From: an uncultured Clostridia bacterium
GTDB lineage: Bacteria > Bacillota > Clostridia > TANB77 > CAG-465
Length of the DNA stretch: 64,000 bases
Assembly: GCA_934169925.1 (NCBI GenBank)
Contig: CAKPOO010000004.1
Coordinates: 65,604-129,603, forward strand
Direction: 5' to 3'
Numbering within the stretch: position 1 is the first letter of the stretch; each line of letters starts with the position of its first letter. Both the position numbers and the translations under genes were made by a program. The notes below the pieces were generated by a model. The model searched no databases and was not told the DNA's origin. It worked only from the letters and a program-made list of their open reading frames with translations. Positions 7,045 through 54,401 of the stretch are shown here, piece after piece.

Positions 7045-7073
7045 TTGACTTTTATAACTCTTTGTAGTATATT
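7045..7073 (+). promoter_or_regulatory. Sigma-A-like promoter for the LytTR regulator
   Basis: TTGACT, 17 nt, TATATT. Confidence 0.4.
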
Positions 7074-7089
7074 TTTCTTAGTGATTTTT

Positions 7090-7785: not shown

Positions 7786-7796
7786 GGAGTTAATTT

Positions 7797-9161
7797 ATGA
7801 CCAGCGTTATTACAAATATTTTTAGTTATTTAATTCAATCGATTGTGAATACACATTTCTTTTTAATTGTTTCAAAAAAAGTTTACAAAAATTATGAAAA
7901 TAAACATTATACAAATAAACAAAGAATAATATTTTTCATTTGTATTATTTTTTCTACTAGTTTACTAAGTACAATTTATAATTTAAATATCCAAGTTTTA
8001 TTACCCTTTAGAGGTGTTTTAATGATAGCATTGACTACTTTAATCTGTAAATTTACATTAGATATAAAGTTAGGATTATCAATAATATTAAGTATATTAT
8101 CTGCTATTTTCTCAGCTATAATTGAAATGTTTTCTACAATATTTTGTACTGCTATTTTAAGAATGGATGTTAATTTTTTACTAACAACATCTATAGGAAA
8201 ATTGTCAATTATGTCTGTTTATGGAATTTTTTCAATGTTATTAATTTTATTAATACAAAAGAAATTAAAGAATTTAAAACTTGATTCATTTACAAATAAA
8301 TTATCATTAAAAAATTTAGTAATTTTTACTATTAGTTTAGTTTTTTATGTATTTCCCCAAATGTTTTTATTTGTTAGTAATAAATATGAATATCCAATAG
8401 CATTTTTAATACTTAATATGATACAATTTCTACTAATAAATGTATTTTTACTTATATATTTAAATAAAGAACTAAAATATCAAAAATATAAATCAGATTT
8501 ATTTACATCTGAAGTTCATAATAAAGCTTTAATTGGTATGATTGATGGAGTTAGAACTTTAAAACATGATTATAATAATATTATCCAATCTTTAAACGGA
8601 TATGTTTTAACTAAACAATATGATAAATTAGAAGAATATGTAAATTCTTTACTTAACGAATGTAATTCTATTAATAACATTGCAAATTTAGATCAAAATA
8701 TATTTAATGATCCTGCAATATATGGTGTAGTTGGTTCAAAATACTTTTTGGCAACTGAAAAAAACATTAAATTTGACTTTGATATTTCAATAGATATATC
8801 AAGTATTTGCTTTTCTATGCCAGATTTATCTAGAATATTAGGAATTATTTTAGATAATGCTATTGAAGCTACTTTAAAAACAAATAAAAAATATATCAGA
8901 TTACAAATGTCTTATGATACTAGAAAAAATGCTGATGTTATCAAGGTATTCAACACATATGATAATTCTATCCAAATAGATTTAAATGAAATATACAAAA
9001 AAGGTGTATCTTCTAAAAAGATTAAATCAGGTATTGGTTTATGGGAAGTTAAAAAATTAATTTCAAAATCAAATAATTCACAAATTTATGCTACAATAGA
9101 AAAAAATAAATTTGTTCAAAATATAATTATTGAAAAAACAGATGCAAAAAATAAGAAGTGA
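7797..9161 (+). CDS. AgrC/LytS-type sensor histidine kinase (GHKL, HPK10-like)
   Basis: Six to seven N-terminal TM segments, a C-terminal ATPase domain, and adjacency to the LytTR regulator. Confidence 0.85.
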   Translation: MTSVITNIFSYLIQSIVNTHFFLIVSKKVYKNYENKHYTNKQRIIFFICIIFSTSLLSTIYNLNIQVLLPFRGVLMIALTTLICKFTLDIKLGLSIILSILSAIFSAIIEMFSTIFCTAILRMDVNFLLTTSIGKLSIMSVYGIFSMLLILLIQKKLKNLKLDSFTNKLSLKNLVIFTISLVFYVFPQMFLFVSNKYEYPIAFLILNMIQFLLINVFLLIYLNKELKYQKYKSDLFTSEVHNKALIGMIDGVRTLKHDYNNIIQSLNGYVLTKQYDKLEEYVNSLLNECNSINNIANLDQNIFNDPAIYGVVGSKYFLATEKNIKFDFDISIDISSICFSMPDLSRILGIILDNAIEATLKTNKKYIRLQMSYDTRKNADVIKVFNTYDNSIQIDLNEIYKKGVSSKKIKSGIGLWEVKKLISKSNNSQIYATIEKNKFVQNIIIEKTDAKNKK

Positions 9162-9182
9162 TTTTATTTCACTTCTTATTTT
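9151..9182. terminator. Bidirectional hairpin terminator between the kinase and agrD
   Basis: aagaagtga...tcacttctt, flanked by an A-run and a T-run. Confidence 0.6.
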
Positions 9183-9196
9183 TTATTCTTAAAACA

Positions 9197-9310
9197 TTAT
9201 TTTTCAATTAATGTTCTAGGCATTTTTGGTTGATGAAATAACCAATAAACGCAAGCTGTTGTTGAATTTTTTGCATACCCTTCTACTAATTTTTTTAATA
9301 ATTTTTTCAT
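9197..9310 (-). CDS. agrD: AgrD autoinducing-peptide precursor (37 aa): MKKLLKKLVEGYAKNSTTACVYWLFHQPKMPRTLIEK
   Basis: Clostridial AgrD pattern: amphipathic leader, Cys-containing core CVYWLF, charged HQPKMP tail. RBS GGGGG sits 8 nt upstream. Not in the ORF track because it is under 60 aa. Confidence 0.75.
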   Translation of the reverse strand: MKKLLKKLVEGYAKNSTTACVYWLFHQPKMPRTLIEK

Positions 9311-9415
9311 ACTCTTTTCCCCCTTTATTCTTTCTAATCATACTAATTACTAAATGACGCTAATTAGTAAACTAAAAATATGTATGATTTATTTATATAA
9401 AAAGCTTATAGCTTA

Positions 9416-10060
9416 TTATATCTTGTTTATGAAATAATCTTTAAATTCTTCTGACTCAATACTTGTTTTACAATGTAACATTTTATAGATTAATTTTGTT
9501 GCATTTAAATTTATAAGAAATACATTTATCATTACTAAACTTTGTATTTTTATATCTTTAATTACAAAAAAACATAAAATATATACAATACCCAAAGATA
9601 AACTAGCAAATATTCTTAATTTTTTTCTTTTACTTTCTTTTAAAATAGGTACTTCTTCTGTATCTGCTGGTGCTCTTTTTATTATTATATAACCAGAAAA
9701 TATAAGATTAACTATATAAAAAATATATAATAAATACTGTGGTATAGTTATAAATTTTACTAACAAACATGGAAAAATAAAAAACATAGTTGATAATACT
9801 AAACATAAAATATTAGTCCTTGCATGTGCTCCTCCAATGAAACTCTTGTATATAAAATTTATAATAATAGAGACTAATAAAAATGGTAATATTTTTAGTA
9901 AGTATGAAATAATAAATATTACTAAAATTTTTGGTATATCTTCTATTATTCGAGTTACTCCAAAATTCATTATTTCTTTTTGCTCATTACTTACATTTTC
10001 TCCTTTATATAAGTAATTACAAACTATATAATCACTTACTTTTTCTATCATTCCTACCAC
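9416..10060 (-). CDS. agrB: AgrB, the AgrD-processing membrane peptidase
   Basis: FIGGAHARTNILC motif (AgrB His/Cys catalytic pair); polytopic. Probable true start is MIEK at 10051, with RBS GGTGGTAGG. Confidence 0.85.
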   Translation of the reverse strand: MVGMIEKVSDYIVCNYLYKGENVSNEQKEIMNFGVTRIIEDIPKILVIFIISYLLKILPFLLVSIIINFIYKSFIGGAHARTNILCLVLSTMFFIFPCLLVKFITIPQYLLYIFYIVNLIFSGYIIIKRAPADTEEVPILKESKRKKLRIFASLSLGIVYILCFFVIKDIKIQSLVMINVFLINLNATKLIYKMLHCKTSIESEEFKDYFINKI

Positions 10061-26406: not shown

Positions 26407-26691
26407 TTAATCTTCTTTTTTTATAACCATGTGTTTTAAAACAACATCTTCTATTCTTAAAACTCTTTCAAACTCAGCAATAAATTCTGGCTTAGCTACA
26501 AATGTTAAAAGTGTGTATACACCTTCTGTTTGTTTTTTAATAGGATAAGCTAATGTTTTTTTACCCCATTCTTCAACATTTGTAAGTTCGCCATTTGAAG
26601 ATATTAATGCTTTCATTTTTTCTCCAAATGCTACAGTTTCCTCTTCTGCTGCAGTTGCTGAAAGTATTATAACTGCTTCATAATTGTTCAT
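26407..26691 (-). CDS. rpsF: 30S ribosomal protein S6
   Basis: Sequence and order. Confidence 0.95.
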   Translation of the reverse strand: MNNYEAVIILSATAAEEETVAFGEKMKALISSNGELTNVEEWGKKTLAYPIKKQTEGVYTLLTFVAKPEFIAEFERVLRIEDVVLKHMVIKKED

Positions 26692-26833
26692 GACTTACAC
26701 CTCCTTTTGGTCGTCTGACTCTATAATCATATAGAGTAAGGAAATTAACTTTTGATATTATAACATACTTTTTATTATTTATCAACTACATATTTTCTTT
26801 TTTTTAACTAAAAATATATAATATATGTATTAT

Positions 26834-26861
26834 TGACTTTGTAACTCTTTAATTATATAAT
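26834..26861 (+). promoter_or_regulatory. Sigma-A promoter for mecA
   Basis: TTGACT, 16 nt, TATAAT. Confidence 0.5.
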
Positions 26862-26898
26862 ACATATAATTATAATAACACATTTAGGAGGGTACCTA

Positions 26899-27504
26899 AT
26901 GAAAGTTGAAAAAATTAATGATAACAAAATAAAAATTACATTATCTTTGGAAGAACTAGAAAAAAGAAAAATATCATTAACAGATTTAGAACATGATTCT
27001 TCCCTAGCTAAAAATTTATTTTTAAGTTTAATTGAAGAATCAGACTTAGAAGATGAATTTAAACTAGAAAATTCTCAATTATTTATAGAAGCATTTTCTG
27101 ATAACAATAATACTTTTGTAATCACAATTACAAAAATAGATGCAATACCAGAATTATTAAAATATAATAACGAAAATATGCCTATAAAAAATAAAGTTAG
27201 CACATATAAAGTCGAAAGTAACATTTTTGAATTTGAAAACTTAGATAAAATTCTTAGTATGTGTGCAGCTTCAAAAAATGAAAATTTATTTTTTGGAAGA
27301 AATAGTTTATATAAATTAAATGATAGATATTTTATCATTTTTAAAAAATCAAGTGTAAAAAATAAAAAATTTATAAAAACATTCATTTTCTTATCTGAAT
27401 ATTGCACATCATATTATAACGATGAAATATTTGAAGCTTCTCTTATTGAAAAATCAACTAATATCATAAAGAGTACAGCTCTTCAAAAATTATCTAATTT
27501 CTAA
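26899..27504 (+). CDS. mecA: Adaptor protein MecA
   Basis: N-terminus MKVEKINDNKIKITLS and a C-terminal region parallel to B. subtilis MecA. Confidence 0.65.
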   Translation: MKVEKINDNKIKITLSLEELEKRKISLTDLEHDSSLAKNLFLSLIEESDLEDEFKLENSQLFIEAFSDNNNTFVITITKIDAIPELLKYNNENMPIKNKVSTYKVESNIFEFENLDKILSMCAASKNENLFFGRNSLYKLNDRYFIIFKKSSVKNKKFIKTFIFLSEYCTSYYNDEIFEASLIEKSTNIIKSTALQKLSNF

Positions 27505-27525
27505 AAGCAACTCTAGTTGCTTTTT

Positions 27526-27954
27526 TTATACCTTAGAATAACTAAATTTTTCAATTTTCATATCAATATATTTGTAATTTTTAGAAAAAGTATTATTAAA
27601 AAAATTCAAACTATTTACTTTACATTTATACATTATTTCAAAATTAATTTTTTTACCATAATCTTGTTTTATACTAGGCACGTTTATAACTATATTATTA
27701 ATATCAAACCCACTATCACTTAATTCATTTAATAATTTTTCCCTTTCAGAATTATTTAAATAACCATATTTTTCTGTAATAAACAAATATTTTGATGAAA
27801 TTGTATTTAATTTTTCATACCATATCAAAGGTTCAATTACACTATACATTTGTATAAATATAGCTATTATAAATAACATACTACTAACTACGATTAGTGG
27901 ATATACTGCAACATTGCCTCTTTTTTTATTATTTAATTTTAACTTTAAATTCAT
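27526..27954 (-). CDS. TadE-like minor pseudopilin (putative)
   Basis: N-terminal KKRGNVAVYPLIVVSSMLFI hydrophobic segment; last gene of the pilus-like operon. Confidence 0.35.
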   Translation of the reverse strand: MNLKLKLNNKKRGNVAVYPLIVVSSMLFIIAIFIQMYSVIEPLIWYEKLNTISSKYLFITEKYGYLNNSEREKLLNELSDSGFDINNIVINVPSIKQDYGKKINFEIMYKCKVNSLNFFNNTFSKNYKYIDMKIEKFSYSKV

Positions 27955-27955
27955 A

Positions 27956-28375
27956 TTATTTCACATCCAACATTTTTAATTTTACTTCATAATTAAACCC
28001 TACTTTACATTTATTATTAAGACTAAAAATCATAGGAACTATTTCTACTTCTATTTTTCCATATACAACATTTTTTAATTTATCATATTTTATACTAACA
28101 AGTTTTGCATTTTTATAATTTTCAATTAATATTTTATCAACCTTTTCCTTCATTAAATTCTCATCTATAACATAATCAAAATTTGAAAGAGAATTTTCAT
28201 TACAAGAAATAATTGCATTTTGAACTATATAAAATATATCCTCTTTTAATGGATAAACATAAGAATTTATTTGTAACTTTAAAATAACAATACCAGTAAA
28301 AATTATAAGTATAAAAACAATAAATATACTTAAGAAAAATATTTCAAAATATCCATTTCTTAATTTTCTAGCCAT
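27956..28375 (-). CDS. TadE/TadF-like minor pseudopilin (putative)
   Basis: N-terminal TM immediately after a basic stretch; position in the operon. Confidence 0.35.
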   Translation of the reverse strand: MARKLRNGYFEIFFLSIFIVFILIIFTGIVILKLQINSYVYPLKEDIFYIVQNAIISCNENSLSNFDYVIDENLMKEKVDKILIENYKNAKLVSIKYDKLKNVVYGKIEVEIVPMIFSLNNKCKVGFNYEVKLKMLDVK

Positions 28376-29952
28376 TTGTTAATTAAAACCTTTTCTATTT
28401 TATCTTCACTACTAAAGTTAGAATAAAAAGTAAAATTATTATTATATAAATAATCAGATAATTTATCTATTTTAAACTCAAGCTTATCATTTTCATATAT
28501 AAATTTCACAATATTAGGTTCTTTAATTCTATTTCCAACACTTGAAAAATCTATATTAAAAAATTCAATATTTTTATCCCTTAAAGTATTCCAATCTTCT
28601 ATGGTATTATTAAATTTTTCATTTACATTAATTTTAAAAACAAAATACTTTTCATTTTCAAAATATAATTCATACTCATTTTTAGCCAATTTATTATCAT
28701 TTATATACACCTCAAGTTTAGAAAAATCATTTATACTCTTTTTGTTAATTCTAAATAACAAATTTCTTTTTCCTTCGATTATACCTAATGAATTATTTAC
28801 TGTATTATTTGTCACAAATAAATTTTTAACATATTTTTCTCCATTGTAAACATCTAACACTCTACATTCTGAATTTTCAATCATTTTTGGAACTTCTTTT
28901 TTGGGAGTTATATGTACTTTTATATCTTTTTGAATTTCAGATTTTAATAATCCATCTACTATAAACTCTGTATATAAATAACTTACAACTTTAACATCAA
29001 TTATATCCCCGTCTACATATTCATTTCTATCTATTTTAAAAGTCTTATTTTTTGTAACTTCATCTGTTTTACTTGAAGAAATTTCATCTATTAATACACC
29101 ATCTATATATAACTTAGAATTAATTTCTTTAATATATTCTTTTTTAGCATAATCATTTAAATTAATAGCCTTAGCACCAAACGAAACATTTATTATTTTA
29201 TAATCTTCATCTTCAAGAATATCTAAATTATCATCAATATTTAGCGTAGAAATAGTGCTAGCACTAGCTGCCATTGGTTTTGTAGACATAGTAGCTACAC
29301 CATAATACCCACTTGGCGTTATTCTTCTTACTGTTACTATCCCATTTGTTTTCCAAGTTGAAGCCGTATTTAGCATCACTTTATCAAGACCTATTGAGCT
29401 TGCTGAGATATTATATTCTTTTAAATTATATGGATCTATTGTATTGTTTGCATAATCAATAGTATCAAATAGCAATTTTGTTGTTTTCATATAATCTTTT
29501 TGTTCTTGGTATTTAAATTTTGATATATCATCCCAAGATTCTAAAGCTCCTTGAACTCCTGTAAAATTCCAATTATCGGGTGTTGTTTCTGGAATTTTAT
29601 CAACAGGAAAATAAACATTATATACAAGACCTCCAGAAAAATTAAATCCTAAAATGTTATATTCACCTGTAACTCCATTATTTGAATCTTTTCCATTATT
29701 AACACTTTTAAACCTTTGATCAGAAGTATATGCATATACATCTAAAGGATTTCCATAAACAAAAACATTATATTTATAATAAAACTCTTCATTTATGCTT
29801 TTGCCTATAGCATTATATTCTGGTATACCTATTGTATCTAGACAAAATCTAAAATCATCACTTAGAGCAAAAAGATTTGATTTAAAACTCATTATAACAA
29901 TTACAAAAAACAACAAAGATAAAACTTTAAACCTCTTATTTTTCATAATCAC
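28360..29952 (-). CDS. Large secreted or membrane-anchored protein (TadG-like position), 530 aa
   Basis: Signal-like N-terminus and operon context. No catalytic motifs. Confidence 0.4.
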   Translation of the reverse strand: MIMKNKRFKVLSLLFFVIVIMSFKSNLFALSDDFRFCLDTIGIPEYNAIGKSINEEFYYKYNVFVYGNPLDVYAYTSDQRFKSVNNGKDSNNGVTGEYNILGFNFSGGLVYNVYFPVDKIPETTPDNWNFTGVQGALESWDDISKFKYQEQKDYMKTTKLLFDTIDYANNTIDPYNLKEYNISASSIGLDKVMLNTASTWKTNGIVTVRRITPSGYYGVATMSTKPMAASASTISTLNIDDNLDILEDEDYKIINVSFGAKAINLNDYAKKEYIKEINSKLYIDGVLIDEISSSKTDEVTKNKTFKIDRNEYVDGDIIDVKVVSYLYTEFIVDGLLKSEIQKDIKVHITPKKEVPKMIENSECRVLDVYNGEKYVKNLFVTNNTVNNSLGIIEGKRNLLFRINKKSINDFSKLEVYINDNKLAKNEYELYFENEKYFVFKINVNEKFNNTIEDWNTLRDKNIEFFNIDFSSVGNRIKEPNIVKFIYENDKLEFKIDKLSDYLYNNNFTFYSNFSSEDKIEKVLINKWLEN

Positions 29953-29953
29953 C

Positions 29954-30574
29954 TCAATTTACAACTATTTTTAACATATCATCTTGAACTTGAATAGTTA
30001 TTTTTACACTTTTTATCTGTATATCTTGCTTTTCATTTGTATTATCTTTCTTTATATTTTTAGCTTTTGTATATTCTTCCTTTATCAAATTTTCTAAAAA
30101 AAGTTTATCTGTTTTTTCTATATAACCAGTATTATCTTTATTTTTTAAATCTATTATTTCATATATAAAATTCATAATTTCATTAAAATATTCATCTTGT
30201 ATAATAATATTTTCTTTAGTTATTTCATAGTTTTTAAATAATTTATTCATATAAATATCAATGTGATAATCACTGCCTACTTTTTCATTAAAATCAATTT
30301 TTACATCATAAAAATTATTTTTTAGTTCTTTTTCATTTTTACCTATGTAAAACGATTGATTTTCTTCATCAAAAAAAACATACCTATCTTTAAAATTTAA
30401 TAATTTTTTTATTTCATAAACATTTACACTATTTTTTAAATCATCATTTTTCAAATTATTTTTATTATCATTTTTTATATTTCTAAAATATAAAAATATT
30501 GAAGATATCAATATAGTTAAAACAATAATTATAAACACAAAAATAAAACAGCTACTCCTTTTTATTTTTTTCAT
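29954..30574 (-). CDS. Membrane-anchored hypothetical protein
   Basis: N-terminal TM and operon context. Confidence 0.4.
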   Translation of the reverse strand: MKKIKRSSCFIFVFIIIVLTILISSIFLYFRNIKNDNKNNLKNDDLKNSVNVYEIKKLLNFKDRYVFFDEENQSFYIGKNEKELKNNFYDVKIDFNEKVGSDYHIDIYMNKLFKNYEITKENIIIQDEYFNEIMNFIYEIIDLKNKDNTGYIEKTDKLFLENLIKEEYTKAKNIKKDNTNEKQDIQIKSVKITIQVQDDMLKIVVN

Positions 30575-30905
30575 ATACTTTTTCTATCCTATCGCATATA
30601 ACCTTGTCTGTGCTATTTAAAAATCCTACATTTTCAGAATATTTTATACATTCCATAATATACTCTTTATTTAATTTATTTGTTAAAATAATAACATTAT
30701 CTTTGAATTTATATTTTTCCTTATATTTTTTTATTTCTTCTATACTATTTGTAAGTATCAAATAAATATCGTATTTAGATTTTGATGTGGATTTTAGATA
30801 TATTTTCATTTCTTTACCACTATTTTCTATATATTGTTTTAAATTATTTATAATATTTGATACATTTTCACTTTTAGTATCATAAGCTGCAAGTACATTT
30901 ATCAT
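30552..30905 (-). CDS. Pseudo-receiver (TadZ N-terminal-like) domain protein
   Basis: 117 aa with a CheY-like alpha/beta pattern and no canonical acidic pocket. Confidence 0.3.
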   Translation of the reverse strand: MINVLAAYDTKSENVSNIINNLKQYIENSGKEMKIYLKSTSKSKYDIYLILTNSIEEIKKYKEKYKFKDNVIILTNKLNKEYIMECIKYSENVGFLNSTDKVICDRIEKVYEKNKKE

Positions 30906-30913
30906 TATTTCAC

Positions 30914-31645
30914 CTACTTTACTATGACTACACTAAAATCGCCATATTGTTTTAAATTTTCTATAATCATTGCTGTATCCTTATCAATTTTTATTAATAC
31001 TGTATCTATCAACTTTTCATCTTGAGTTAAATTGTTATAACTTTTAGAAATATCTACACCATTTTTGTTATATATGCCTTTGATATCCACATTTTCCACA
31101 ACATTTAAGGTTATATAGCTAGTAGCACCACTTTTTGAACTAACTATACTACTTTTTTCTAACTTACTGACTACATCATATGCATATTCAGATTTTCCTG
31201 TATAAATTAAATTTATAATACTACCTTTTTTTATTTGATATGAAGCTAAATTTTCAGAATTTTTTAAATTTATTGACATTAAAACTTCATTATTTTCAAC
31301 TAAAATAAATTCACTATCATCTAAAAAATCACTATTTTTTAATAGATTTCCTTTTTTTACATTTTCATTTAAAGTACAATTTTTTATACTACTAAACTCT
31401 GTTATATACTGATCTTTCACATTATTATTTACAAGCGCTAACTTAGTAACCATATTTTCATTTATTTTAATTCCTTTTTCAAAATCTTCATTAAAAACAT
31501 ACACATATTCTATCTTCTTGTTATAATTAAAGTAATTATACAAAGACTTAACCATAAAAAATAATCCAAAAGCTATTAATATAACAATAAAATATTTTCT
31601 ATATTTCATTAAAATCCCATATTGATCAAAGATGAAGTAAACCAA
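30914..31645 (-). CDS. CpaB/RcpC-like Flp pilus assembly protein (putative)
   Basis: N-terminal TM followed by a SAF-like region; position next to the pilin. Confidence 0.4.
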   Translation of the reverse strand: MVYFIFDQYGILMKYRKYFIVILIAFGLFFMVKSLYNYFNYNKKIEYVYVFNEDFEKGIKINENMVTKLALVNNNVKDQYITEFSSIKNCTLNENVKKGNLLKNSDFLDDSEFILVENNEVLMSINLKNSENLASYQIKKGSIINLIYTGKSEYAYDVVSKLEKSSIVSSKSGATSYITLNVVENVDIKGIYNKNGVDISKSYNNLTQDEKLIDTVLIKIDKDTAMIIENLKQYGDFSVVIVK

Positions 31646-31821
31646 CCTGAAATAGATGCAAGTGTGTTAGTAATTAAGCCTTGAATTGCTGGGAAAAATA
31701 TAGTAACTATAACTACTGCAAGTACTGCAATTAAAAGCAAAGTTTCTGCTGTAGCAATACCCTTTTTATTTTTTAATTTTTTATTTTTTTTAATTATTTT
31801 TTCTTTTTTATCCTTTTTCAT
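31609..31821 (-). CDS. Flp/type IVb-like prepilin (70 aa)
   Basis: Basic leader ...KNKKG | IATAETLLLIAVLAVVIV; Glu at +5 after the cleavage-site Gly; short mature peptide. Confidence 0.6.
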   Translation of the reverse strand: MKKDKKEKIIKKNKKLKNKKGIATAETLLLIAVLAVVIVTIFFPAIQGLITNTLASISGWFTSSLINMGF

Positions 31822-31841
31822 TTTTCTCCTTTCTAAAAAAA

Positions 31842-32675
31842 TTACTTAAACATAATCTCAAAATTACTAATAATTTGGTTTAGTATTGGATACATCATAA
31901 GAAGTAATGTATTTAGTAACACTACAAAAATAACAATTATTAATAATAATGATTTTTTTGACATTTTAAATTTAACAAATTTAAAATATGAAAGTTCCAA
32001 AGAATCTAAAAAATTTTCTAACATTTTAATTATATTTCCATTTTTTTGATTTTGTATTAAAATAGATAAAAACATATTTAATTCATAAGAGTTGAATTTT
32101 TCTTTTAAAATTTGTGATGCACTTTCTATATTAAAATTATACAATTGATAATTTGATACAAAAGTTGCATATTCATTTTTGAATCTATTATATTTTACAG
32201 AATTAATTGATAATTTTAACGAATCATATAAAGATAAATTTGCAGACAATGATAGAATTAAATTTTGAACAATGTTTCCAATTTCATTTATTAAATAAAT
32301 AGACTCTTGTTTTACATATGCTTTTATAACAATATCTGGTAACAAGAAAAAAAGAATAAAAATAATAATTGATGCAAAAATATTATGATAATTAATTAAA
32401 ATAAATAAGAATAAAAAGCTAGATATAATATATTTTATAACTATATATCTTTTCAAACTAAATCCATACGGATAACCTAAATTAAATAAATATCTAGATT
32501 TTTGATTAAATCCCATTTTAAATATTAGATCTTCTTTTTTTAATTCTTTGGAATTACTATCAATAACATATTTACGTTTTAGTAAAACACTAAAATACAT
32601 AACCATGTTATACGATAATATTAAAGAAAATAAAATTAATATTATTTCCTCATAAATATAATCACCTCCTTGCAT
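31842..32675 (-). CDS. TadB/TadC (GspF-family) inner-membrane platform protein (putative)
   Basis: TM, a ~100-aa cytoplasmic helical domain, then C-terminal TMs; sits immediately upstream of the pilin. Confidence 0.45.
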   Translation of the reverse strand: MQGGDYIYEEIILILFSLILSYNMVMYFSVLLKRKYVIDSNSKELKKEDLIFKMGFNQKSRYLFNLGYPYGFSLKRYIVIKYIISSFLFLFILINYHNIFASIIIFILFFLLPDIVIKAYVKQESIYLINEIGNIVQNLILSLSANLSLYDSLKLSINSVKYNRFKNEYATFVSNYQLYNFNIESASQILKEKFNSYELNMFLSILIQNQKNGNIIKMLENFLDSLELSYFKFVKFKMSKKSLLLIIVIFVVLLNTLLLMMYPILNQIISNFEIMFK

Positions 32676-32765
32676 AAAAAATATATCATCTGCTCCTTAT
32701 TACGTCAAGAAAATTCCATCGCGTAATTCGACAAAAATAAAAAGATTTAATCTAAACTTTGTTTA

Positions 32766-32794
32766 TTGATAATTAATTATTTATTTGATATAAT
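32766..32794 (+). promoter_or_regulatory. Sigma-A promoter for the HD-GYP gene
   Basis: TTGATA, 17 nt, TATAAT. Confidence 0.55.
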
Positions 32795-32814
32795 CACAAT
32801 TGGTGATGAGATAA

Positions 32815-33846
32815 ATGGGAAATGAAGACTATGAAAAAATTACAAGTGCTAATATTATGATAATAGATGAAGATGTTAATATGATGGAAGTTTTATCTGC
32901 CGTTTTGAAAAAATATGGTCATGTTGTTAAAGCGTATACAGAACCAATATCTGCAATTGAAGAATTAAAATCTCAAAAATATGATATTTTAATAGTTAAT
33001 TACTTAATGTCTACTGTAAACGGAGATAAAATAATTGAGCTTGTAAGAGAATTTGATAAAGAAATTTATATAATTCTTATGTCTATGCATAAAGATCTAG
33101 CTCTTTCTATGGATGATATGCGTAACTTAGATATACAAGCTTACTTTGAAAAAAGTTCAAGATTTGACCAACTAGTTATGTTTGTACAAGGTGGTATTAA
33201 ATATATTGAACAACTTAAAAATATAAAAAAAATGAACTTGCAATTAGAACACTATTTAGTTGATTTTGCATCTATATTACTAAAAACTATAGAAGCAAAA
33301 GACCACTTTACAGAAGAACATTCATATAGAGTTTCTAATATGTGTGCTTTATTTGCAGACTACATAAATCTTACACCTAAAGAAAAAAATGATTTAGTAA
33401 CAGCTGCTAAATTCCATGATGTAGGAAAAATAGGAGTACCCGATTCTGTGTTAATGAAAGAAGGTAAATTAACAAATGAAGAATATGAAACCATGAAATT
33501 ACATACTGTCATTGGTGCAAGCATTTTCTCTACCTCTGATATTTTTAAAGATGTTACTCCAATTATAAAAGGACATCATGAAAGAGTTGATGGAAAAGGT
33601 TATCCTGATAAATTAAAATCAGATCAAATTTCAAAATTAACAAAAATGCTTACTTTATGTGATTCTTTTGATGCAATTGTTTCTAAAAGAGTATATAAAG
33701 ATGCAAAAAGTGTTGAAGATGCATTAAAAGAAATAGATAAAAATTCAGGTAAACAATTTGATTCATATTTAGCATATAAATTTATAGATATGGTAAATGA
33801 AAATAGAGAAGTAGTAGACAAAATAATCGAAAAGAAGAAAGAATAA
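32815..33846 (+). CDS. Response-regulator-like HD-GYP phosphodiesterase (putative c-di-GMP PDE) with a degenerate receiver
   Basis: HD...HHERVDGKGYP motif. N-terminal REC-like domain with Asn (ILIVNYLM) where the phospho-acceptor Asp is expected. Confidence 0.8.
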   Translation: MGNEDYEKITSANIMIIDEDVNMMEVLSAVLKKYGHVVKAYTEPISAIEELKSQKYDILIVNYLMSTVNGDKIIELVREFDKEIYIILMSMHKDLALSMDDMRNLDIQAYFEKSSRFDQLVMFVQGGIKYIEQLKNIKKMNLQLEHYLVDFASILLKTIEAKDHFTEEHSYRVSNMCALFADYINLTPKEKNDLVTAAKFHDVGKIGVPDSVLMKEGKLTNEEYETMKLHTVIGASIFSTSDIFKDVTPIIKGHHERVDGKGYPDKLKSDQISKLTKMLTLCDSFDAIVSKRVYKDAKSVEDALKEIDKNSGKQFDSYLAYKFIDMVNENREVVDKIIEKKKE

Positions 33847-33873
33847 AGAGTTTGGTAATTTACTAAACTCTTT

Positions 33874-34530
33874 TTATTCTATATATATAGCTATTGCTTT
33901 TAAAATTTTTTTATCATCTCTTAATTCTCTAGAATTCATCATATACCCAATTACATTTACTTTACATTCCATTTCAGATAACAAATCAATATCTCCTTGA
34001 AGCATATCTTTTTCATACCATATAAAAGTATCATCAATCATGAAAAAAGAATTATTTTTTGTTATAGTTTCTGCACTCAAATCATCTCTATATCTATTTA
34101 CTTTTATATATCCACATAAATTATATATTCTATCTGAATTTTCTTCTCTAGTTAAATTTTGATTTACTTTATCTAGTAAAGTATGATAAAAATTATTGTT
34201 TTTTATTTCAGTAATATCTTCAATATTAAGATATTTTTTTTGTGTTTGAGTGTTATATGAACTAGAACTTCCATAAGACATATCTACTTTTTTTCTATTG
34301 CCTTTTTCATCTTTACACCCTTCATTTAATTTTTCTTCTTCTTTTTTTTCATCGCAAAAATTCTCATTGCGAAACATATTTTCAACTCCAGGGTTTAGAG
34401 CAAAATTATTATTAGTTGTTGTACTATTAGTAACAGTAAATTCAAAAACATTTATATCAAAATCCACAGTTGTTATTGTTGAAAAAAGTCTTTTTAAAAA
34501 TTCTTTATCCAAATACATGTAATATCTCAT
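33874..34530 (-). CDS. Hypothetical protein
   Basis: ORF only; low-complexity N/T-rich region. Confidence 0.4.
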   Translation of the reverse strand: MRYYMYLDKEFLKRLFSTITTVDFDINVFEFTVTNSTTTNNNFALNPGVENMFRNENFCDEKKEEEKLNEGCKDEKGNRKKVDMSYGSSSSYNTQTQKKYLNIEDITEIKNNNFYHTLLDKVNQNLTREENSDRIYNLCGYIKVNRYRDDLSAETITKNNSFFMIDDTFIWYEKDMLQGDIDLLSEMECKVNVIGYMMNSRELRDDKKILKAIAIYIE

Positions 34531-34593
34531 TTTTCCCCTCTAAAACATACACTATCTTCTATTATTATATTTTAAAAATTTATTTATATTAAA

Positions 34594-35181
34594 CTATATG
34601 CATATATCATTTTCAATATTTAAAAATTTACTTTCTCCTATACCTGGTACATTCATTATATCTTCTATACTTTGAAAACTTTGTTCCTTTCTATAATTAA
34701 TTATCTTTTGTGCAGTTTGTTCTCCTATTCCATCTAATGTTTTTAATTCTTCTAATGTTGCAGTATTAATATTTATTTTATCTTTTTCTAAATTATTTTC
34801 TTCATTTTCAATATTTTCTGTTTCATCTTTTTTTGCTAAAATATTTATCATATCTGAATCACTTAATTTCTTAGATAAATTAAGACTAGATACATCTGCA
34901 TCTTGTGTAACTCCACCACATAAATCTAGCAACTGATACAGCCTTGAACCTGAATCTAAATAATATACGCCAGGATTTTTTACACAACCTATAACATACA
35001 CAGCAATATCATTTGAATCTTTTGAACTTATTTTACTTACACTCATTCTATCATTTTTATCGCTCATTTGTATAAAAATAGAAATTGACGAAATAATTAT
35101 TATTGAAAAGCAAAATGCTATAGTTTTATTTTTTATTATTAATTTTTTTATATCATTTAATTTTGAAAAAAATTTTTTCAT
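34594..35181 (-). CDS. comEA: Competence protein ComEA (SLBB + tandem HhH)
   Basis: C-terminal INTATLEELKTLDGIGEQTAQKII...VPGIGESKF and an SLBB region. Confidence 0.85.
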   Translation of the reverse strand: MKKFFSKLNDIKKLIIKNKTIAFCFSIIIISSISIFIQMSDKNDRMSVSKISSKDSNDIAVYVIGCVKNPGVYYLDSGSRLYQLLDLCGGVTQDADVSSLNLSKKLSDSDMINILAKKDETENIENEENNLEKDKININTATLEELKTLDGIGEQTAQKIINYRKEQSFQSIEDIMNVPGIGESKFLNIENDICI

Positions 35182-35258
35182 TTTATCACTCCTTTTTCAT
35201 AATTTTTGTATATTTTTTATATAATACTTAATAAATATTATCAGAGGTTACTTCTTAT

Positions 35259-36641
35259 ATGAAAATATTAAATTTTTTATTTTTTACATGTATTTGTATA
35301 CTCATACCTTTTAGTTTTTCGTTTGTTTATGCAAATAATGATTATACAAATTTTGATAACGAACTTTACTGTATGAGCGATATTGCAATGGATTTAGAAA
35401 CAGAAGATATACTTTATTCCAAAAATGAGGATTTAAAAATCTATCCAGCAAGTACTACAAAAATATTAACTGCTTTAATTGTAATTGAAAATTTAGATCT
35501 CGAAAAAAAAGTCATAATTACAAAAGATGAAGTAGATATGATTCCATATAACAGCTCTGTTATGGGGATTAAAACAGGAGAAATCTTTTCAGTAGAACAG
35601 TTATTATATGGACTATTATTACCTAGTGGAAATGATGCTGCCATAGTGCTTGCAAAAGAAACAGCCGGAAATGTTGAAAATTTTGTAAATTTAATGAATG
35701 AAAAATGTAGTAAACTTGGTCTTACAAACACACATTTTTGCAATCCACATGGATATCATGATGAAAATCACTACTCAACGGCAAAAGATATGGCAAAATT
35801 ATTTAAAACTTGTATGCAAAACGATGTTTTTGTAAAAATTATTTCTTCACTTTCATACAAGATTGAAAAAACAAATCTAAGTGACGAAAAAATATTAGTT
35901 AATTCAGCTAAAATACTAAATCCATCATATTCTGGAATATATAATAAATATATAAAAGGTGGAAAAACTGGATATACTATAGAAGCTAATGGGACATTTA
36001 TTGGATATGCTCAAAAAGAAAACAAAAAAATAATAATAGGATGTTTTAATGGATTGCAAAATATAAATGGATATCAAGGAAGATTTTTAGATGCAACAAA
36101 ATTAACAGATTATATTTTTAAAAACTATGATACTACTACTTTAGTAGAAAAAAATTCTTTGTGTCTTAAAATACCAGATAAATATAAAAAATTAGCATAT
36201 ACAGTAACACTAAATGATGATATAAACGTTTTAAAAAATATAAATGATACAAAATATGAAAATTTTTCATATGATATAAATATTGATTTTAATAAAATTG
36301 ATAATGTAGCAAACAATATTGAAAGTACTGATTTTAATAATGTAGAATGTGGTTTTATTACTTTCTTTTTAAATAAAGATAATCAAACTTTAAGTATCAA
36401 GAAAAAGTTATACTTAACCAAAATAGAAATTCAAAAAAATAATACAGTATTCTTATCAATTTTTTATGTTTCTATTATTCTAATAATCTTAATTTATACA
36501 ATAATAAAATTAAAAAAAATATTTAGAGTTAAACATAATGAAAAAAATTATATAAAAAATATTGAAAGTAAAAAACATCAAAAGATAAAAAAATCCTCTT
36601 CAAAAATGATAAAATCAATAGAAAAATATGTAAGATTCTAA
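35259..36641 (+). CDS. D-alanyl-D-alanine carboxypeptidase (PBP5/DacA-like, S11)
   Basis: SxxK (ASTTK), SGN (LPSGNDAA), KTG (KGGKTGYT); C-terminal TM anchor. Confidence 0.85.
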   Translation: MKILNFLFFTCICILIPFSFSFVYANNDYTNFDNELYCMSDIAMDLETEDILYSKNEDLKIYPASTTKILTALIVIENLDLEKKVIITKDEVDMIPYNSSVMGIKTGEIFSVEQLLYGLLLPSGNDAAIVLAKETAGNVENFVNLMNEKCSKLGLTNTHFCNPHGYHDENHYSTAKDMAKLFKTCMQNDVFVKIISSLSYKIEKTNLSDEKILVNSAKILNPSYSGIYNKYIKGGKTGYTIEANGTFIGYAQKENKKIIIGCFNGLQNINGYQGRFLDATKLTDYIFKNYDTTTLVEKNSLCLKIPDKYKKLAYTVTLNDDINVLKNINDTKYENFSYDINIDFNKIDNVANNIESTDFNNVECGFITFFLNKDNQTLSIKKKLYLTKIEIQKNNTVFLSIFYVSIILIILIYTIIKLKKIFRVKHNEKNYIKNIESKKHQKIKKSSSKMIKSIEKYVRF

Positions 36642-40093: not shown

Positions 40094-42128
40094 CTAATCA
40101 TTATCATCAGAACCAAAAAGTTCATCAAATTTTTTCTCTAATTCTTTTTGTAAATCAAAGCTATCTTCTTTTGGTTTTCTAACAACTTTAGGTTCAGTTT
40201 CAATTTTAGCAAAAGTTGCCTGCTGCTCAGTGCTTTTTTTATCTGTAAGAGATTCATCAACAAATAAATCATCAAGTGTAGAATCAATAGCTGGATCAGG
40301 TTTTGAGACTCTTTGTTGTAAAATAGCTTTTGCTTTTTCTTCTCTTTTCTTTAAATGTTCTCTTACATCCATTATTTTTATTTCAACATTTTCAGTTTTT
40401 GGCATTTGAGTAATATCTTTAATTTCATATTGTTTTGCAACATTTCTCATAGGATGATATTTAAAATACCAAGCTTTTTTTGCTTTAATTGGTTTTAGTG
40501 TTCTAACAATTATTATTTCTTCATTTGGATCAAGTCTTTTTAATTCATCAATTGTCATTAAGTCTCTACCTTGTTTTTGTTCACTTATATTTACCCCTTG
40601 TTTTTCTTTTTCTTTTTTGTCTTTACTTACTGATTTACTTTTATATTTAATAGTTTTTTGACCAAGAGATTTATTAAAATATTCACAAGTTTTTATTGAC
40701 TGACTTCCTAAGAAAAGTTGTGTATCACAGTTACCAATTATTGTTTCATATTGCTCTTTATATAAAGATTCAAGTTGATCTAAAGCTTGAACAACTATAG
40801 AAATACTAATTCCCATACTTCTAGTTACACTCAATTTTTTATGGAAGTCTGGAATTTGTCCAATATTTGCAAATTCATCAAGTAAGAAATATACTTGTTG
40901 ATTTAAACGTCCACCATTATGATCAGCTTGTAAAAATAGTTTCTGAAGCATTTGGCTAAAAAACATTGTAGAAACAAAATCATATGTACTATCAGATGTT
41001 GATGTTATAACAAATATAGCTAATTTTTTTCTACCTAGATCATCAAAATTAAAACTATTTGATGTTGTAATTCTTTGCATTGCTGGAGTATCAAAAGTAC
41101 TAATCTTAGAAATTGTTGAAATAACAATACTTTGCATTGTTTTATCAGCAGATGTACTAAAGTTTTCATATTCTTTTCTACCTGGATGTTCTGGTTTTAA
41201 TTCTTCCAAGAATAGTTTTTTAAATATTCTATCATCAGCACCACCTGCTCTTATTATATTTAAACAACTTGATATATTTTGTTCTTCTTCCGGTAAAACT
41301 GATATAACATAATATATACAAGCTTTAAGTAACATTTTTGCCGTATCATCCCAGAAAGGATCACTACTTCCAACAGAGCCTTTTTTTGCACCTTGCACAA
41401 TTGTTTCTGCAAGTACATCAACACTTTGGTGATCAATTAAATGTGATAATGGATTATATCTATCACTATATTCTGGATTAACTAAATTAAAAGCTTTTAC
41501 TTCATATCCATTTGCCTTTAAGAATCCTGATGTTTCTCTATATAACTCACCTTTTGGATCTGTTATTACATAAGAACCAAGCATTTGTAAAATATTTGGT
41601 TTTATAAAACATGCAGATTTACCAGCACCAGATCCGTCCTACGACTAATATGTTTTTATTAATCAAAACTTTTTTTAAGTCTGTTCCTAAATAATGATCT
41701 TTACTTAGTATAAATCCTCTTTTTCTATTTAAGATTTCTCTGCCATCACTTGTTTTATTAAATTCTTCACCATTTTTAGCCCAATCACTTGACCCATTTT
41801 CTATATTATCATATTCACCATTACTACTATTTTTAATTTTCCAAGCTATAAATAACACTAACATTATTACAAAAGTATAACCAGTTATATTTAAGAAACT
41901 AGAAAAATTTTCAAAAATACCAGCAAAGAATTTAAAACTTGTTAATGTTGGCATAAAATTATTTGTAACTACAGATATAGTATCAATAGTTGTTGCTCCA
42001 TCACTTACTAATGTTAAACAGTGATTTATTGTTCCACCTATTATTACATCAATTAGTACAAACATGATTAAAAAAGGCATAGCCTCTTGCTTTAATTTGT
42101 TTAATTTACTACTCATATCAAACCTCAA
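40094..42128 (-). pseudogene. VirD4/TraG-family type IV secretion coupling protein, split by a frameshift between the TM domain and the NTPase domain
   Basis: ORF 41619-42128 has 2 TM segments and a GSSDWAKN motif (VirD4 hGsArwA-like). Walker A DGSGAGKSA is readable only in a third frame across 41585-41640. ORF 40094-41584 begins at ...VITDPKGE and has an acidic C-terminal tail. Confidence 0.7.
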
Positions 42129-52917: not shown

Positions 52918-53250
52918 TTACAATATTTTTTTATAAATAGATTCTTTAAAATTTTTATACTCTATTGTTTTTACATAGATGCCAGTATTTTTTGAAAATG
53001 TAAAAATGTTTAGTAAAATTTCAACTATATTATTGTTTTCATAATTTAAAGCTATAAACACAGGAATTGGAAATAAAAAGATAGAAGAAACATAAACTTG
53101 TACTTTGAATGAAAGTTTAAAAAGACTTAAAAATTTAAAAATAGCTAAAACATATATAGAAATAAAAAACAGCCATTTATATTCTATAATACCTAACCAT
53201 TTATTTTTTCTATCAACATATGAAAATATTTTTTCTTTTATTTTTATCAC
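52918..53250 (-). CDS. Small two-TM membrane protein, part of the T4SS-like cluster
   Basis: Hydrophobic profile and operon position. Confidence 0.35.
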   Translation of the reverse strand: MIKIKEKIFSYVDRKNKWLGIIEYKWLFFISIYVLAIFKFLSLFKLSFKVQVYVSSIFLFPIPVFIALNYENNNIVEILLNIFTFSKNTGIYVKTIEYKNFKESIYKKIL

Positions 53251-53254
53251 CTAC

Positions 53255-54052
53255 TTATTTTTGAAAAAATTGACTAGTTATTCCATTTATCTTATATAAC
53301 ATATAAACGCTTCCTATCATTATAACTTGGTATAATTCCTCATCTAAATTTTTACACATAAGAGGTATACAAATTATAAAATAACCTATAAATTGTTGAA
53401 TAATATTGATTATAAAAACTTTTGTTAAAGATAAAAATATCCAACTTGTATTTTTTCTTGATAAAAAAATTAATGAAATTGGAAATAACATGATAGCTAA
53501 AATTATAGTTACATATCTTATAGAAAAATTAATTAAAATAGAAATACAACCAAAAGATACTGTAGTTTTTAAAACTCCACTTAAACTTAGCATATCTTGT
53601 CCTAAGACCTGATTTACACTTATTATTTCATCTTTTAAATTTACAAATGATATATCAGATTTTATAACACTAGTAAATAGTTTGTCTATACAAAACAAAA
53701 TAGAATCTGAAAGTTCAAAAAAGATTTCAAATATAAATTTAAAATTTTGTATTATTATCCCAATTACAACTATTTTAAATAAAAACAAATATATATTTTC
53801 ACTTTCTTTTCCATTATATAAATTTATTATTTTTATTGTTACAAAATAAATGACATACATAAAAAGAAGGGTTAAGCAAATCAAAACATAATTATTATAA
53901 AACTTTTTATCAAAAAAATCTTTAAGAGGAGATATTTCTAAGATATCAGATCTTATTATGAAAATTTTATCCATTAATTCATATATTTTACTATCAACTG
54001 ATGCATATATTTTTTCTAATGTAACATTTAAATTACTTATTATATCATTCAT
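53255..54052 (-). CDS. Polytopic membrane protein with VirB6/TrbL-like topology (putative)
   Basis: About 6 TM; context next to the VirB2-like protein and the ATPase. Confidence 0.35.
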   Translation of the reverse strand: MNDIISNLNVTLEKIYASVDSKIYELMDKIFIIRSDILEISPLKDFFDKKFYNNYVLICLTLLFMYVIYFVTIKIINLYNGKESENIYLFLFKIVVIGIIIQNFKFIFEIFFELSDSILFCIDKLFTSVIKSDISFVNLKDEIISVNQVLGQDMLSLSGVLKTTVSFGCISILINFSIRYVTIILAIMLFPISLIFLSRKNTSWIFLSLTKVFIINIIQQFIGYFIICIPLMCKNLDEELYQVIMIGSVYMLYKINGITSQFFQK

Positions 54053-54053
54053 T

Positions 54054-54401
54054 TTATTTTAATATTGTTTGTAAAAAAGATATTATCCAATCTAAGCTTA
54101 ATACTAATGCATATCCAACTATAGCGTTTATAATTACTTTTTTACCTTTAGCCAATTTTTCCTCATCCCCAAAGCTTAATTTTCTCATTAAAATTCCAAC
54201 AATTAAAGCAATACTTGCAATTGGTGTTGCAAGAGTTTCTAAATATGTTATTATTTTTTTCATTGCACTATTAAGTTTTGTAACTAACGTTGGATTTGTC
54301 GTTGTTGCACCATATACAAGACTAAAGCTTATAAAAAAACAAAAGAGTATTAAACTTAAAATTATTTTTTTGTTTTTTAATTTTTTTACTTTAATTTTCA
54401 T
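54054..54401 (-). CDS. VirB2/TrbC-like pilin-topology protein (signal peptide plus two hydrophobic helices)
   Basis: 115 aa with a signal-like N-terminus ...SLVYGATT and two TM segments. 4-nt overlap with the upstream ATPase gene. Confidence 0.4.
   Translation of the reverse strand: MKIKVKKLKNKKIILSLILFCFFISFSLVYGATTTNPTLVTKLNSAMKKIITYLETLATPIASIALIVGILMRKLSFGDEEKLAKGKKVIINAIVGYALVLSLDWIISFLQTILK

What the first reader, a model, noticed from the sequence alone, without database searches (positions are those of the whole stretch)
27526..33846. ATPase-less Tad/Flp-like pilus cluster beside an HD-GYP phosphodiesterase with a non-phosphorylatable receiver
Eight co-directional, tightly packed genes resemble part of a Tad/Flp pilus system: a GspF-like platform protein, a 70-aa Flp-type prepilin (G|IATAE, Glu+5), a CpaB-like protein, a pseudo-receiver, and TadE/TadG-like minor pilins with N-terminal hydrophobic segments. 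No TadA/CpaF ATPase, TadZ or prepilin peptidase lies within or next to the operon. The divergent neighbour is a REC-HD-GYP protein whose receiver has Asn where the phospho-acceptor Asp should be, so it cannot be driven by a kinase. This layout suggests a c-di-GMP-linked surface-appendage module whose motor is supplied in trans, or an undescribed ATPase-independent filament system. The minor components have no recognisable domains.
Basis: partly seen in the sequence, partly recalled or inferred. Interest (0 to 1): 0.72.

Follow-up and report, generated by a model that had tools for sequence, protein, structure and literature searches.

The report
Conserved motor-less Tad/Flp pilus gene module
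An eight-gene cluster in an uncultured low-GC gut Clostridia lineage encodes the membrane platform, pilin and surface parts of a Tad/Flp-type pilus but never its ATPase motor, and it is kept under selection in about 35 independent assemblies, so the motor is either encoded elsewhere or truly not needed.

Summary
Window 27526-32675 (- strand) is a tight eight-gene operon. It encodes:
- a single-domain T2SSF (TadC-like) platform;
- an Flp-like prepilin (KKG|IATAE);
- a CpaB/RcpC-like anchored protein;
- a small cytoplasmic protein and a membrane-anchored protein;
- a 530-aa secreted protein;
- two pilin-like proteins with a K-K-G leader.

The 64-kb window contains no T2SSE ATPase, TadZ, second platform protein or A24 peptidase. 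The same holds within 10 kb of the module in about 35 related loci. Mis-assembly is excluded. All eight genes show dN/dS of 0.05-0.34, so this is not a decaying remnant.

More distant T2SSF relatives sit in complete Firmicute Tad-like operons ordered TadZ-like, T2SSE, TadB-like, TadC-like, Flp, DUF4320, x, RcpC. The module is therefore the distal part of such an operon, starting exactly after the missing tadZ-tadA-tadB.

- The 530-aa protein is not TadG/vWA. It has an Athe_2463 domain followed by Ig-like domains.
- The "pseudo-receiver" call for the 117-aa protein is unsupported.
- The HD-GYP neighbour, whose Asp-to-Asn receiver is confirmed and conserved, accompanies only one clade.

Most likely this is a split Tad system with its motor in trans.

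The parts
31842..32675 (-). TadC-like inner-membrane platform. 277 aa with one T2SSF domain (residues 137-263). Hydrophobic segments at about 7-32, 76-122 and 233-269.
   Evidence: Pfam T2SSF 29.4 bits, above the 25.2 cut-off. Hydropathy. The profile hits the second (283-287 aa) platform gene of complete Tad-like loci L029/L030 at E 2e-23 and 3e-18. The family is small: 53 representatives at E<=1e-30 among 1.84 billion proteins.
31609..31821 (-). Flp-like prepilin, 70 aa. Lys-rich leader, predicted cleavage KKG|IATAE with Glu at +5, one hydrophobic helix, and conserved FYPQ and W motifs.
   Evidence: Flp1_like PF16982, E 8e-5, below the cut-off. 12 of 14 orthologues hit it, best E 9.3e-7. G21, F42, P44 and W60 are invariant.
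30914..31609 (-). CpaB/RcpC-like protein. 231 aa from the ATG at 31609 (the ORF extends to 31645). N-terminal membrane anchor.
   Evidence: 6 of 10 orthologues hit RcpC PF16976 (best E 2.5e-4), 3 hit ChapFlgA and 2 hit SAF. Weak FlgA hits. The profile hits the RcpC-like gene of L029/L030.
30552..30905 (-). 117-aa soluble, presumably cytoplasmic protein with an alternating beta/alpha pattern. Function unknown and fast-evolving.
   Evidence: No TM segment. No Response_reg or other credible family hit. The single-sequence AF2 model has pLDDT 50.6 and cannot be assigned. dN/dS is 0.05-0.54.
29954..30574 (-). 206-aa N-terminally anchored extracytoplasmic protein. This is the variable slot of the module.
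   Evidence: One N-terminal hydrophobic segment and no family hit. In L024 and L026 an SLH-domain (cell-wall-binding) protein occupies this slot. The slot is absent in L031.
28360..29952 (-). 530-aa secreted protein (528 aa in called genes). Sec-type leader, conserved N-terminal Athe_2463 domain (about residues 53-215), then Ig-like beta-sandwich domains.
27956..28375 (-). 139-aa pilin-like (pseudopilin candidate) protein. Short basic leader ending in a nearly invariant Gly, then a hydrophobic helix.
   Evidence: Alignment A7: G8 is conserved in at least 90% of sequences and follows K/R-K/R. Hydropathy. No Pfam support.
27526..27954 (-). 142-aa DUF4320-related pilin-like protein. KKG leader followed by a hydrophobic helix.
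   Evidence: 7 of 14 orthologues hit DUF4320 PF14208 (best E 3.2e-5) and 3 hit TadF weakly. The profile hits the DUF4320 gene that follows flp in L029/L030 at E 1e-13 to 1e-15.
32676..32814 (.). 139-bp divergent intergenic region between the module and the HD-GYP gene.
   Evidence: One extended -10 promoter-like site on each strand. The count across the region is not above shuffles, so this is positional plausibility only. No Rfam riboswitch.
32815..33846 (+). REC-HD-GYP phosphodiesterase with Asn at the phospho-acceptor position. It is a clade-specific neighbour, not a core part of the module.
   Evidence: Pfam Response_reg, HD_5 and HD. It aligns to the HD-GYP structures 4MCW and 5Z7C with the HD and HHE..GYP motifs present. 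The motif IL[IL]VNYLM is conserved in the window protein and all six aligned orthologues, opposite CheY D57 and Spo0F D54.

Best explanation
This is the distal, structural part of a Firmicute Tad/Flp-type (type IVc) pilus system that has become a free-standing operon.

Inferred working model:
- The 70-aa Flp-like prepilin and the two K-K-G pilin-like proteins insert into the membrane.
- A prepilin peptidase encoded elsewhere cleaves them after the conserved Gly.
- They assemble on the TadC-like platform.
- The anchored CpaB/RcpC-like protein, together with the variable anchored or SLH protein, guides or anchors the fibre through the cell wall.
- The Sec-exported 530-aa Athe_2463/Ig-like protein is the surface-exposed, probably adhesive, partner.
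- Energy comes from a TadA/CpaF-type ATPase, probably with a TadB-like partner and a TadZ-like protein. These are encoded at another locus or borrowed from another type IV filament system.
- In one clade a divergently transcribed HD-GYP protein with a non-phosphorylatable receiver probably ties expression or activity to c-di-GMP.

Shown here: gene content, homology, conservation, purifying selection, and local absence of the motor. Inferred: cleavage, assembly, the roles of the accessory proteins, the trans motor, and c-di-GMP control.
For: - Family assignments: T2SSF above the cut-off; Flp1_like in 12 of 14 orthologues; RcpC in 6 of 10; DUF4320 in 7 of 14.
- All three pilin-like families keep a basic leader ending in Gly before the hydrophobic helix.
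- Distant T2SSF relatives lie in complete operons ordered AAA_31 (TadZ-like), T2SSE, weak-T2SSF (TadB-like), T2SSF homologue, Flp1_like, DUF4320, x, RcpC. The module therefore begins exactly where tadZ-tadA-tadB end.
- The eight genes are syntenic in about 35 loci across at least three genomic contexts.
- dN/dS is 0.05-0.34 for every gene in unsaturated pairs.
- The prepilin peptidase is also missing locally, so trans-encoded components are needed anyway. Sharing of peptidases between systems, and loner tadV genes, are documented (PMC6668835).
Against: - No trans-encoded ATPase, TadB or peptidase was seen. Only 64 kb of this genome, and at most 10 kb of flank on each side of the matched gene in each related locus, could be inspected.
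- Denise et al. report that Tad systems scattered over several loci are very rare.
- The module has only one platform protein, whereas Tad systems use a TadB/TadC pair.
- The Pfam support for Flp, RcpC and DUF4320 is below the curated cut-offs in the window proteins themselves.
Confidence: 0.6

Rival explanations
1. The module builds a surface structure without any type IV filament ATPase. One form would be a short static pseudopilus or membrane-anchored scaffold that displays the 530-aa protein, assembled by membrane insertion alone.
For: No T2SSE lies within 10 kb in about 35 loci or anywhere in the 64-kb window. The module keeps its composition while its upstream neighbours change, as expected for a self-sufficient unit. 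All genes are under purifying selection.
Against: An assembly ATPase is treated as a core component of every described type IV filament system (PMC6668835). The T2SSF platform is the ATPase's partner and would have no obvious role alone. The peptidase must come from elsewhere in any case, so local absence is weak evidence of genomic absence.
Confidence: 0.1
2. The module has no dedicated motor. It is an accessory pilin/adhesin cassette that plugs into a different resident type IV filament machine (type IVa pilus or Com pseudopilus), using that machine's PilB/ComGA ATPase and PilD/ComC peptidase.
For: The pilin leaders have the general G|xxxxE class III form. comEA lies two genes away in one clade. 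Peptidases are known to be exchanged between systems.
Against: The module carries its own platform protein and its own CpaB-like protein. Both are Tad-specific partners of TadA/TadB in the closest complete loci. comEA adjacency is lost in the other clades.
Confidence: 0.2
3. The cluster is a decaying remnant of a Tad operon, or an assembly artefact that hides tadZ-tadA.
For: The cluster lacks exactly the three proximal genes of the related complete operons. A few MAG copies have split genes: p530 in L009 and the CpaB-like gene in L022 and L032.
Against: The same gene order appears in about 35 independent assemblies. ORFs of conserved length persist down to about 35% identity. dN/dS is 0.05-0.34 for all eight genes.
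Confidence: 0.03

Closest known systems
Firmicute Tad-like loci carried next to conjugation genes (loci L029 and L030, found here; uncharacterised metagenomic contigs)
   Same: They share homologous TadC-like T2SSF (E 2e-23 and 3e-18), DUF4320-type pilin-like protein (E 1e-13 to 1e-15) and RcpC-like protein (E 7e-14 and 2e-8). An Flp1_like small pilin follows directly after the T2SSF gene.
   Different: Those loci have a TadZ-like AAA_31 protein, a T2SSE ATPase and a second, TadB-like platform gene immediately upstream. They sit beside relaxase, T4CP or PcfJ genes. They lack the 530-aa Athe_2463/Ig protein, the 139-aa family and the 117-aa family.
Canonical Tad/Flp (type IVc) pili: Aggregatibacter tad locus, Caulobacter cpa locus, and Gram-positive tad operons described by Imam et al. 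2011 (PMC3244431)
   Same: Small Flp-type pilin with G|xxxxE, a single-domain T2SSF platform, an RcpC/CpaB-like protein, and pilin-like minor proteins. As in the Gram-positive 'Flp-like' pilins of Imam et al., Tyr at +6 is missing.
   Different: No TadA/CpaF, TadZ/CpaE, TadB or TadV in the locus. No secretin, as expected for a monoderm. No vWA TadG. Extra lineage-specific proteins are present (117, 206 and 530 aa).
MSH pili, whose loci lack a prepilin peptidase and borrow one from a co-resident system (Denise et al. 2019, PMC6668835)
   Same: A precedent for a type IV filament locus that is systematically incomplete and depends on a component encoded elsewhere.
   Different: MSH loci lack only the peptidase. 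They keep their ATPase and platform together.
HD-GYP c-di-GMP phosphodiesterases with N-terminal receiver domains (RpfG type; solved HD-GYP domain structures 4MCW and 4R8Z)
   Same: REC plus HD-GYP architecture with the HD and HHE..GYP motifs present.
   Different: The phospho-acceptor Asp is replaced by Asn in the window protein and all six orthologues aligned with it. Activity cannot be switched by conventional phosphorylation.

Membership tests
Tad/Flp (type IVc) pilus system | TadA/CpaF T2SSE-family assembly ATPase encoded with the system | tested here: not met
   No PF00437 hit among the window ORFs of 100 aa or more that were scanned. No G.TGSGK[ST]T Walker A in the window or in about 45 loci. 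Presence elsewhere in the genome could not be tested.
Tad/Flp (type IVc) pilus system | Inner-membrane platform of T2SSF-family protein(s) | tested here: met
   The 277-aa protein scores 29.4 bits on PF00482, above the 25.2 cut-off. It is homologous to the TadC-position gene of complete loci.
Tad/Flp (type IVc) pilus system | Paired platform proteins TadB and TadC | tested here: not met
   Only one T2SSF gene is present in the module in all loci. The related complete loci have two.
Tad/Flp (type IVc) pilus system | Small Flp-type prepilin with a Gly cleavage site, Glu at +5 and a hydrophobic Flp motif | tested here: met
   KKG|IATAE in the window. Gly is invariant. Glu at +5 occurs in most orthologues; the rest have Gln at +5 with Glu at +2. 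Flp1_like is hit in 12 of 14 orthologues, but the window protein is below the cut-off. Tyr at +6 is absent, as in the Gram-positive Flp-like pilins.
Tad/Flp (type IVc) pilus system | Prepilin peptidase TadV/CpaA (Peptidase_A24); may be a loner gene | not testable with these tools
   None in the window.
Tad/Flp (type IVc) pilus system | TadZ/CpaE ParA/MinD-like localisation ATPase | tested here: not met
   No AAA_31, CbiA or ParA-type hit in the module. The related complete locus L029 has one. The 117-aa protein shows no similarity to receiver or TadZ N-terminal domains.
Tad/Flp (type IVc) pilus system | RcpC/CpaB SAF-domain protein | tested here: met
   6 of 10 orthologues hit PF16976, 3 hit ChapFlgA and 2 hit SAF. 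All hits are weak. The precomputed Pfam entry for L031 lists SAF.
Tad/Flp (type IVc) pilus system | TadE/TadF pseudopilins | tested here: inconclusive
   Both small proteins have a conserved basic leader ending in Gly, then a hydrophobic helix. Pfam TadF gives only weak hits (3 of 14 and 1 of 14) and TadE gives none. The 142-aa family matches DUF4320 instead.
Tad/Flp (type IVc) pilus system | TadG with a vWA-like domain | tested here: not met
HD-GYP c-di-GMP phosphodiesterase | HD-superfamily metal site and the HHExxDGxGYP motif | tested here: met
   HD_5 E 7.6e-34. FHDVGK and GHHERVDGKGYP align to 4MCW. Enzymatic activity was not tested.
Two-component response-regulator receiver (the REC domain of the HD-GYP protein) | Phospho-acceptor Asp at the end of beta3 | tested here: not met
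   Asn at this position in the window protein and all six orthologues aligned with it. The acidic pair, Ser/Thr and Lys positions are retained.
Receiver-like domain (the 117-aa protein) | Detectable similarity to Response_reg or CheY-like fold | tested here: not met
   No Pfam or NCBIfam hit. The profile search against PDB returns only noise. The AF2 model has pLDDT 50.6, so the fold remains undetermined.

The most novel reading that the evidence does not exclude
The module is a self-sufficient type IV-filament-derived surface apparatus. It assembles or anchors Flp-like subunits and an Ig-domain adhesin on a lone TadC-like platform, without any T2SSE-family ATPase in the genome.
Probability: 0.07. 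Interest if true: 0.9.

Novelty: new variant of a known kind. Interest (0 to 1): 0.5.

Why it matters
Every described type IV filament machine is built around an ATPase, a platform and a pilin that are normally encoded together, and scattered Tad systems are reported as very rare. This module is a conserved, selected, lineage-wide case in which the platform, the pilins and the surface parts are permanently uncoupled from the motor. It comes with new accessory proteins: an Athe_2463/Ig-domain secreted protein and two unassigned families. If the motor is in trans, the module is a clean natural example of a split Tad system. It also marks a probable adhesion apparatus in uncultured gut and anaerobic-digester Clostridia. 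If no motor exists in these genomes, that would overturn a core assumption about type IV filament assembly. The question can be settled by scanning a handful of public MAGs.

Tried and rejected
- Rfam scan of 26500-35500 for a c-di-GMP or other riboswitch: nothing at E<=1.
- Promoter and terminator scans: counts not above shuffles. Only a hairpin after the HD-GYP gene stood out.
- Profile searches against PDB sequences for the T2SSF, Flp, CpaB-like, 117-aa and 142-aa families: no credible hits.
- Plasmid collection, tblastn with the T2SSF and 142-aa proteins: no match.
- A SpoIIIA-like sporulation channel was considered because SpoIIIAB is GspF-like (from my own knowledge). I rejected it because no SpoIIIA Pfam family was hit and the 70-aa protein is pilin-like.
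- Single-sequence AF2 of the 117-aa protein was too poor to search with.
- The afdb50 fold library was unavailable.
- Cluster look-ups of distant T2SSF relatives returned no names.
- The trans-ATPase could not be looked for.

Full report
**What is at the coordinates**

The window has about 24% G+C and comes from a spore-forming Firmicute. It carries yabP/yqfD, yabG, mecA and rpsF-ssb-rpsR. On the - strand, from 32675 to 27526, lie eight co-directional ORFs of 277, 70, 243 (more likely 231), 117, 206, 530, 139 and 142 aa. They are separated by 1-20 nt or overlap. The divergent neighbour at 32815-33846 is a REC plus HD-GYP protein.

**Family assignments**

- *277-aa protein.* It passes Pfam T2SSF (29.4 bits against a cut-off of 25.2). 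It has one such domain and hydrophobic segments like a TadB/TadC-type platform.
- *70-aa protein.* It hits Flp1_like only below the cut-off. Twelve of 14 orthologues hit the same family (best E 9.3e-7). The alignment shows a Lys/Arg-rich leader, an invariant Gly, Glu at +5 in most sequences (Gln at +5 with Glu at +2 in the rest), one hydrophobic helix, and invariant F, P and W positions. Tyr at +6 is absent, as in the "Flp-like" pilins of Gram-positive tad loci described by Imam et al. (PMC3244431).
- *231/243-aa protein.* It has an N-terminal anchor. Six of 10 orthologues hit RcpC/CpaB, 3 hit ChapFlgA and 2 hit SAF.
- *142-aa family.* It hits DUF4320 in 7 of 14 members and TadF weakly in 3.
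- *139-aa family.* It hits nothing.
- *Pilin-like leaders.* Both small families keep a K-K-G type leader directly before a hydrophobic helix, like the Flp protein. The module therefore encodes three candidate substrates for a prepilin peptidase.
- *117-aa protein.* It is soluble and has no receiver similarity by Pfam, NCBIfam or a profile search against PDB sequences. A single-sequence model was too poor to use (pLDDT 50.6), although it alternates strands and helices.
- *206-aa protein.* It is N-terminally anchored and has no family hit.

**The 530-aa protein**

**Absence of a motor**

None of the window ORFs of 100 aa or more that I scanned is a T2SSE ATPase, a ParA-like TadZ, a second T2SSF protein or an A24 peptidase. 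A six-frame search for the T2SSE-type Walker A found only FtsE or ABC proteins, in the window and in about 45 fetched loci.

**Conservation**

The T2SSF family is small. A word-indexed search found 18 homologues among 5.8 billion proteins. An exhaustive profile search of 1.84 billion representatives found 53 at E<=1e-30. Loci fetched through identical proteins, GTDB species genomes and JGI/ENA metagenomes all come from uncultured Clostridia. All carry the same eight-gene order.

The genomic context falls into at least three types:

1. comEA, a 218-aa protein and a divergent HD-GYP gene upstream, with mecA and rpsF-ssb-rpsR downstream. This is the window's clade. One member has an extra GGDEF-like gene.
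2. ruvA, ftsE and an ftsX::M23 fusion upstream, with the same downstream genes.
3. A different neighbourhood containing rlmH and a metallo-beta-lactamase-fold gene. Here an SLH-domain protein replaces the 206-aa slot.

Mis-assembly is therefore excluded. The HD-GYP link is clade-specific rather than a property of the module.

Nei-Gojobori estimates for six pairs of loci give dN/dS of 0.05-0.34 for each of the eight genes wherever dS is unsaturated. The module is functional, not a remnant.

**Where the module comes from**

Two distant T2SSF relatives (profile E about 1e-16 and 1e-11) could be placed on contigs. Both lie in complete Tad-like operons beside conjugation genes (PcfJ, or relaxase plus T4CP). 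The gene order is AAA_31 ParA-like protein, T2SSE ATPase, a 317-329-aa weak-T2SSF protein, the T2SSF homologue, an Flp1_like 70-aa protein, a DUF4320 protein, a roughly 200-aa protein, and an RcpC-like protein. The profiles of the module's T2SSF, 142-aa and CpaB-like families hit the corresponding genes. The module therefore corresponds to the part of such an operon that starts at tadC. Exactly the three proximal genes (tadZ-like, tadA, tadB-like) are missing.

**The HD-GYP neighbour**

The HD and HHE..GYP motifs align to solved HD-GYP enzymes. In an alignment with CheY and Spo0F, the acceptor Asp is Asn in the window protein and all six orthologues aligned with it. The acidic pair, Ser/Thr and Lys positions are kept. 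No riboswitch lies in the intergenic region.

**Interpretation**

The best-supported reading is a split Tad/Flp system. The operon encodes the platform, the fibre subunits, the wall-spanning and anchoring parts, and a surface Ig-domain protein. The peptidase is certainly encoded elsewhere, and the ATPase with its TadB and TadZ partners most probably is too, or they are borrowed from another type IV filament system.

Denise et al. treat the ATPase, platform and pilin as the three key components of all type IV filament systems. They note that scattered Tad systems are very rare, while peptidases are often shared or encoded apart (PMC6668835). A permanently motor-less, conserved module is thus an unusual variant. 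It is not evidence of ATPase-independent assembly.

An ATPase-free apparatus therefore stays open at low probability.

**Verdict**

This is a new variant of a known kind, of moderate interest. Scanning the public MAGs that carry the module would settle the open question.

Noticed in passing
window 52918-56068 (- strand): A 556-aa TrwB/HerA/FtsK-like ATPase (54398-56068) is followed by a 115-aa VirB2/TrbC-type T4SS pilin (54054-54401) and two proteins with no family hit. They sit in a chromosomal context next to dnaD/dnaB-like and dnaC/dnaI-like genes. This may be a minimal or relic T4SS-like unit.
   Followed up: no
window 40094-41584 (- strand): A stand-alone VirD4/TraG-type coupling protein of 496 aa. 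The profile match starts at model position 71, so the N-terminal membrane part seems to be missing. It lies between a rarA-like gene and a vanW-like gene, with two unassigned small ORFs upstream. It is not conserved at this position in related loci.
   Followed up: partly
window 33874-34530 (- strand): A 218-aa protein with no family hit lies downstream of comEA and converges on the HD-GYP gene. It is conserved (32-47% identity) in every locus of the HD-GYP clade, always between comEA and the HD-GYP gene.
   Followed up: partly
L028 5091-6818: In this MAG (GCA_026415435.1) a 575-aa protein with a weak GGDEF hit lies between the HD-GYP gene and the module. L033, L036 and L038 also have about 1 kb of extra sequence at this position. 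This hints at a fuller c-di-GMP pair in some members.
   Followed up: no
L012 7450-9792 (also L014-L017 and L020; split into two genes in L021 and L022): A single 765-780-aa polypeptide fuses FtsX (extracellular domain plus permease) to a PcsB-type coiled coil and an M23 peptidase. The FtsEX activator and its hydrolase are thus in one chain, directly upstream of the module in this clade.
   Followed up: no
L024 2054-3301; L026 8619-9308: In the most divergent versions of the module, an SLH-domain (cell-wall-binding) protein occupies the slot held by the 206-aa anchored protein. This suggests that the slot's function is attachment to the wall.
   Followed up: partly
L029 and L030: Complete Tad-like operons (TadZ-like, T2SSE, two T2SSF, Flp1_like, DUF4320, RcpC-like) lie beside PcfJ, or beside a relaxase and a VirD4-type coupling protein. 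Tad-like pili may therefore be cargo or part of the mating apparatus of Firmicute conjugative elements.
   Followed up: partly
window 7042-10060: An agr-type quorum-sensing set: AgrB (9416-10060, - strand), plus a LytTR response regulator (7042-7785) and a GHKL histidine kinase (7797-9161) on the + strand.
   Followed up: no
L009 5687-7296; L022 11039-11696; L032 8839-9478: In a few MAG copies the 530-aa gene or the CpaB-like gene is split into two ORFs. These could be sequencing errors or occasional inactivation. I did not resolve which.
   Followed up: no
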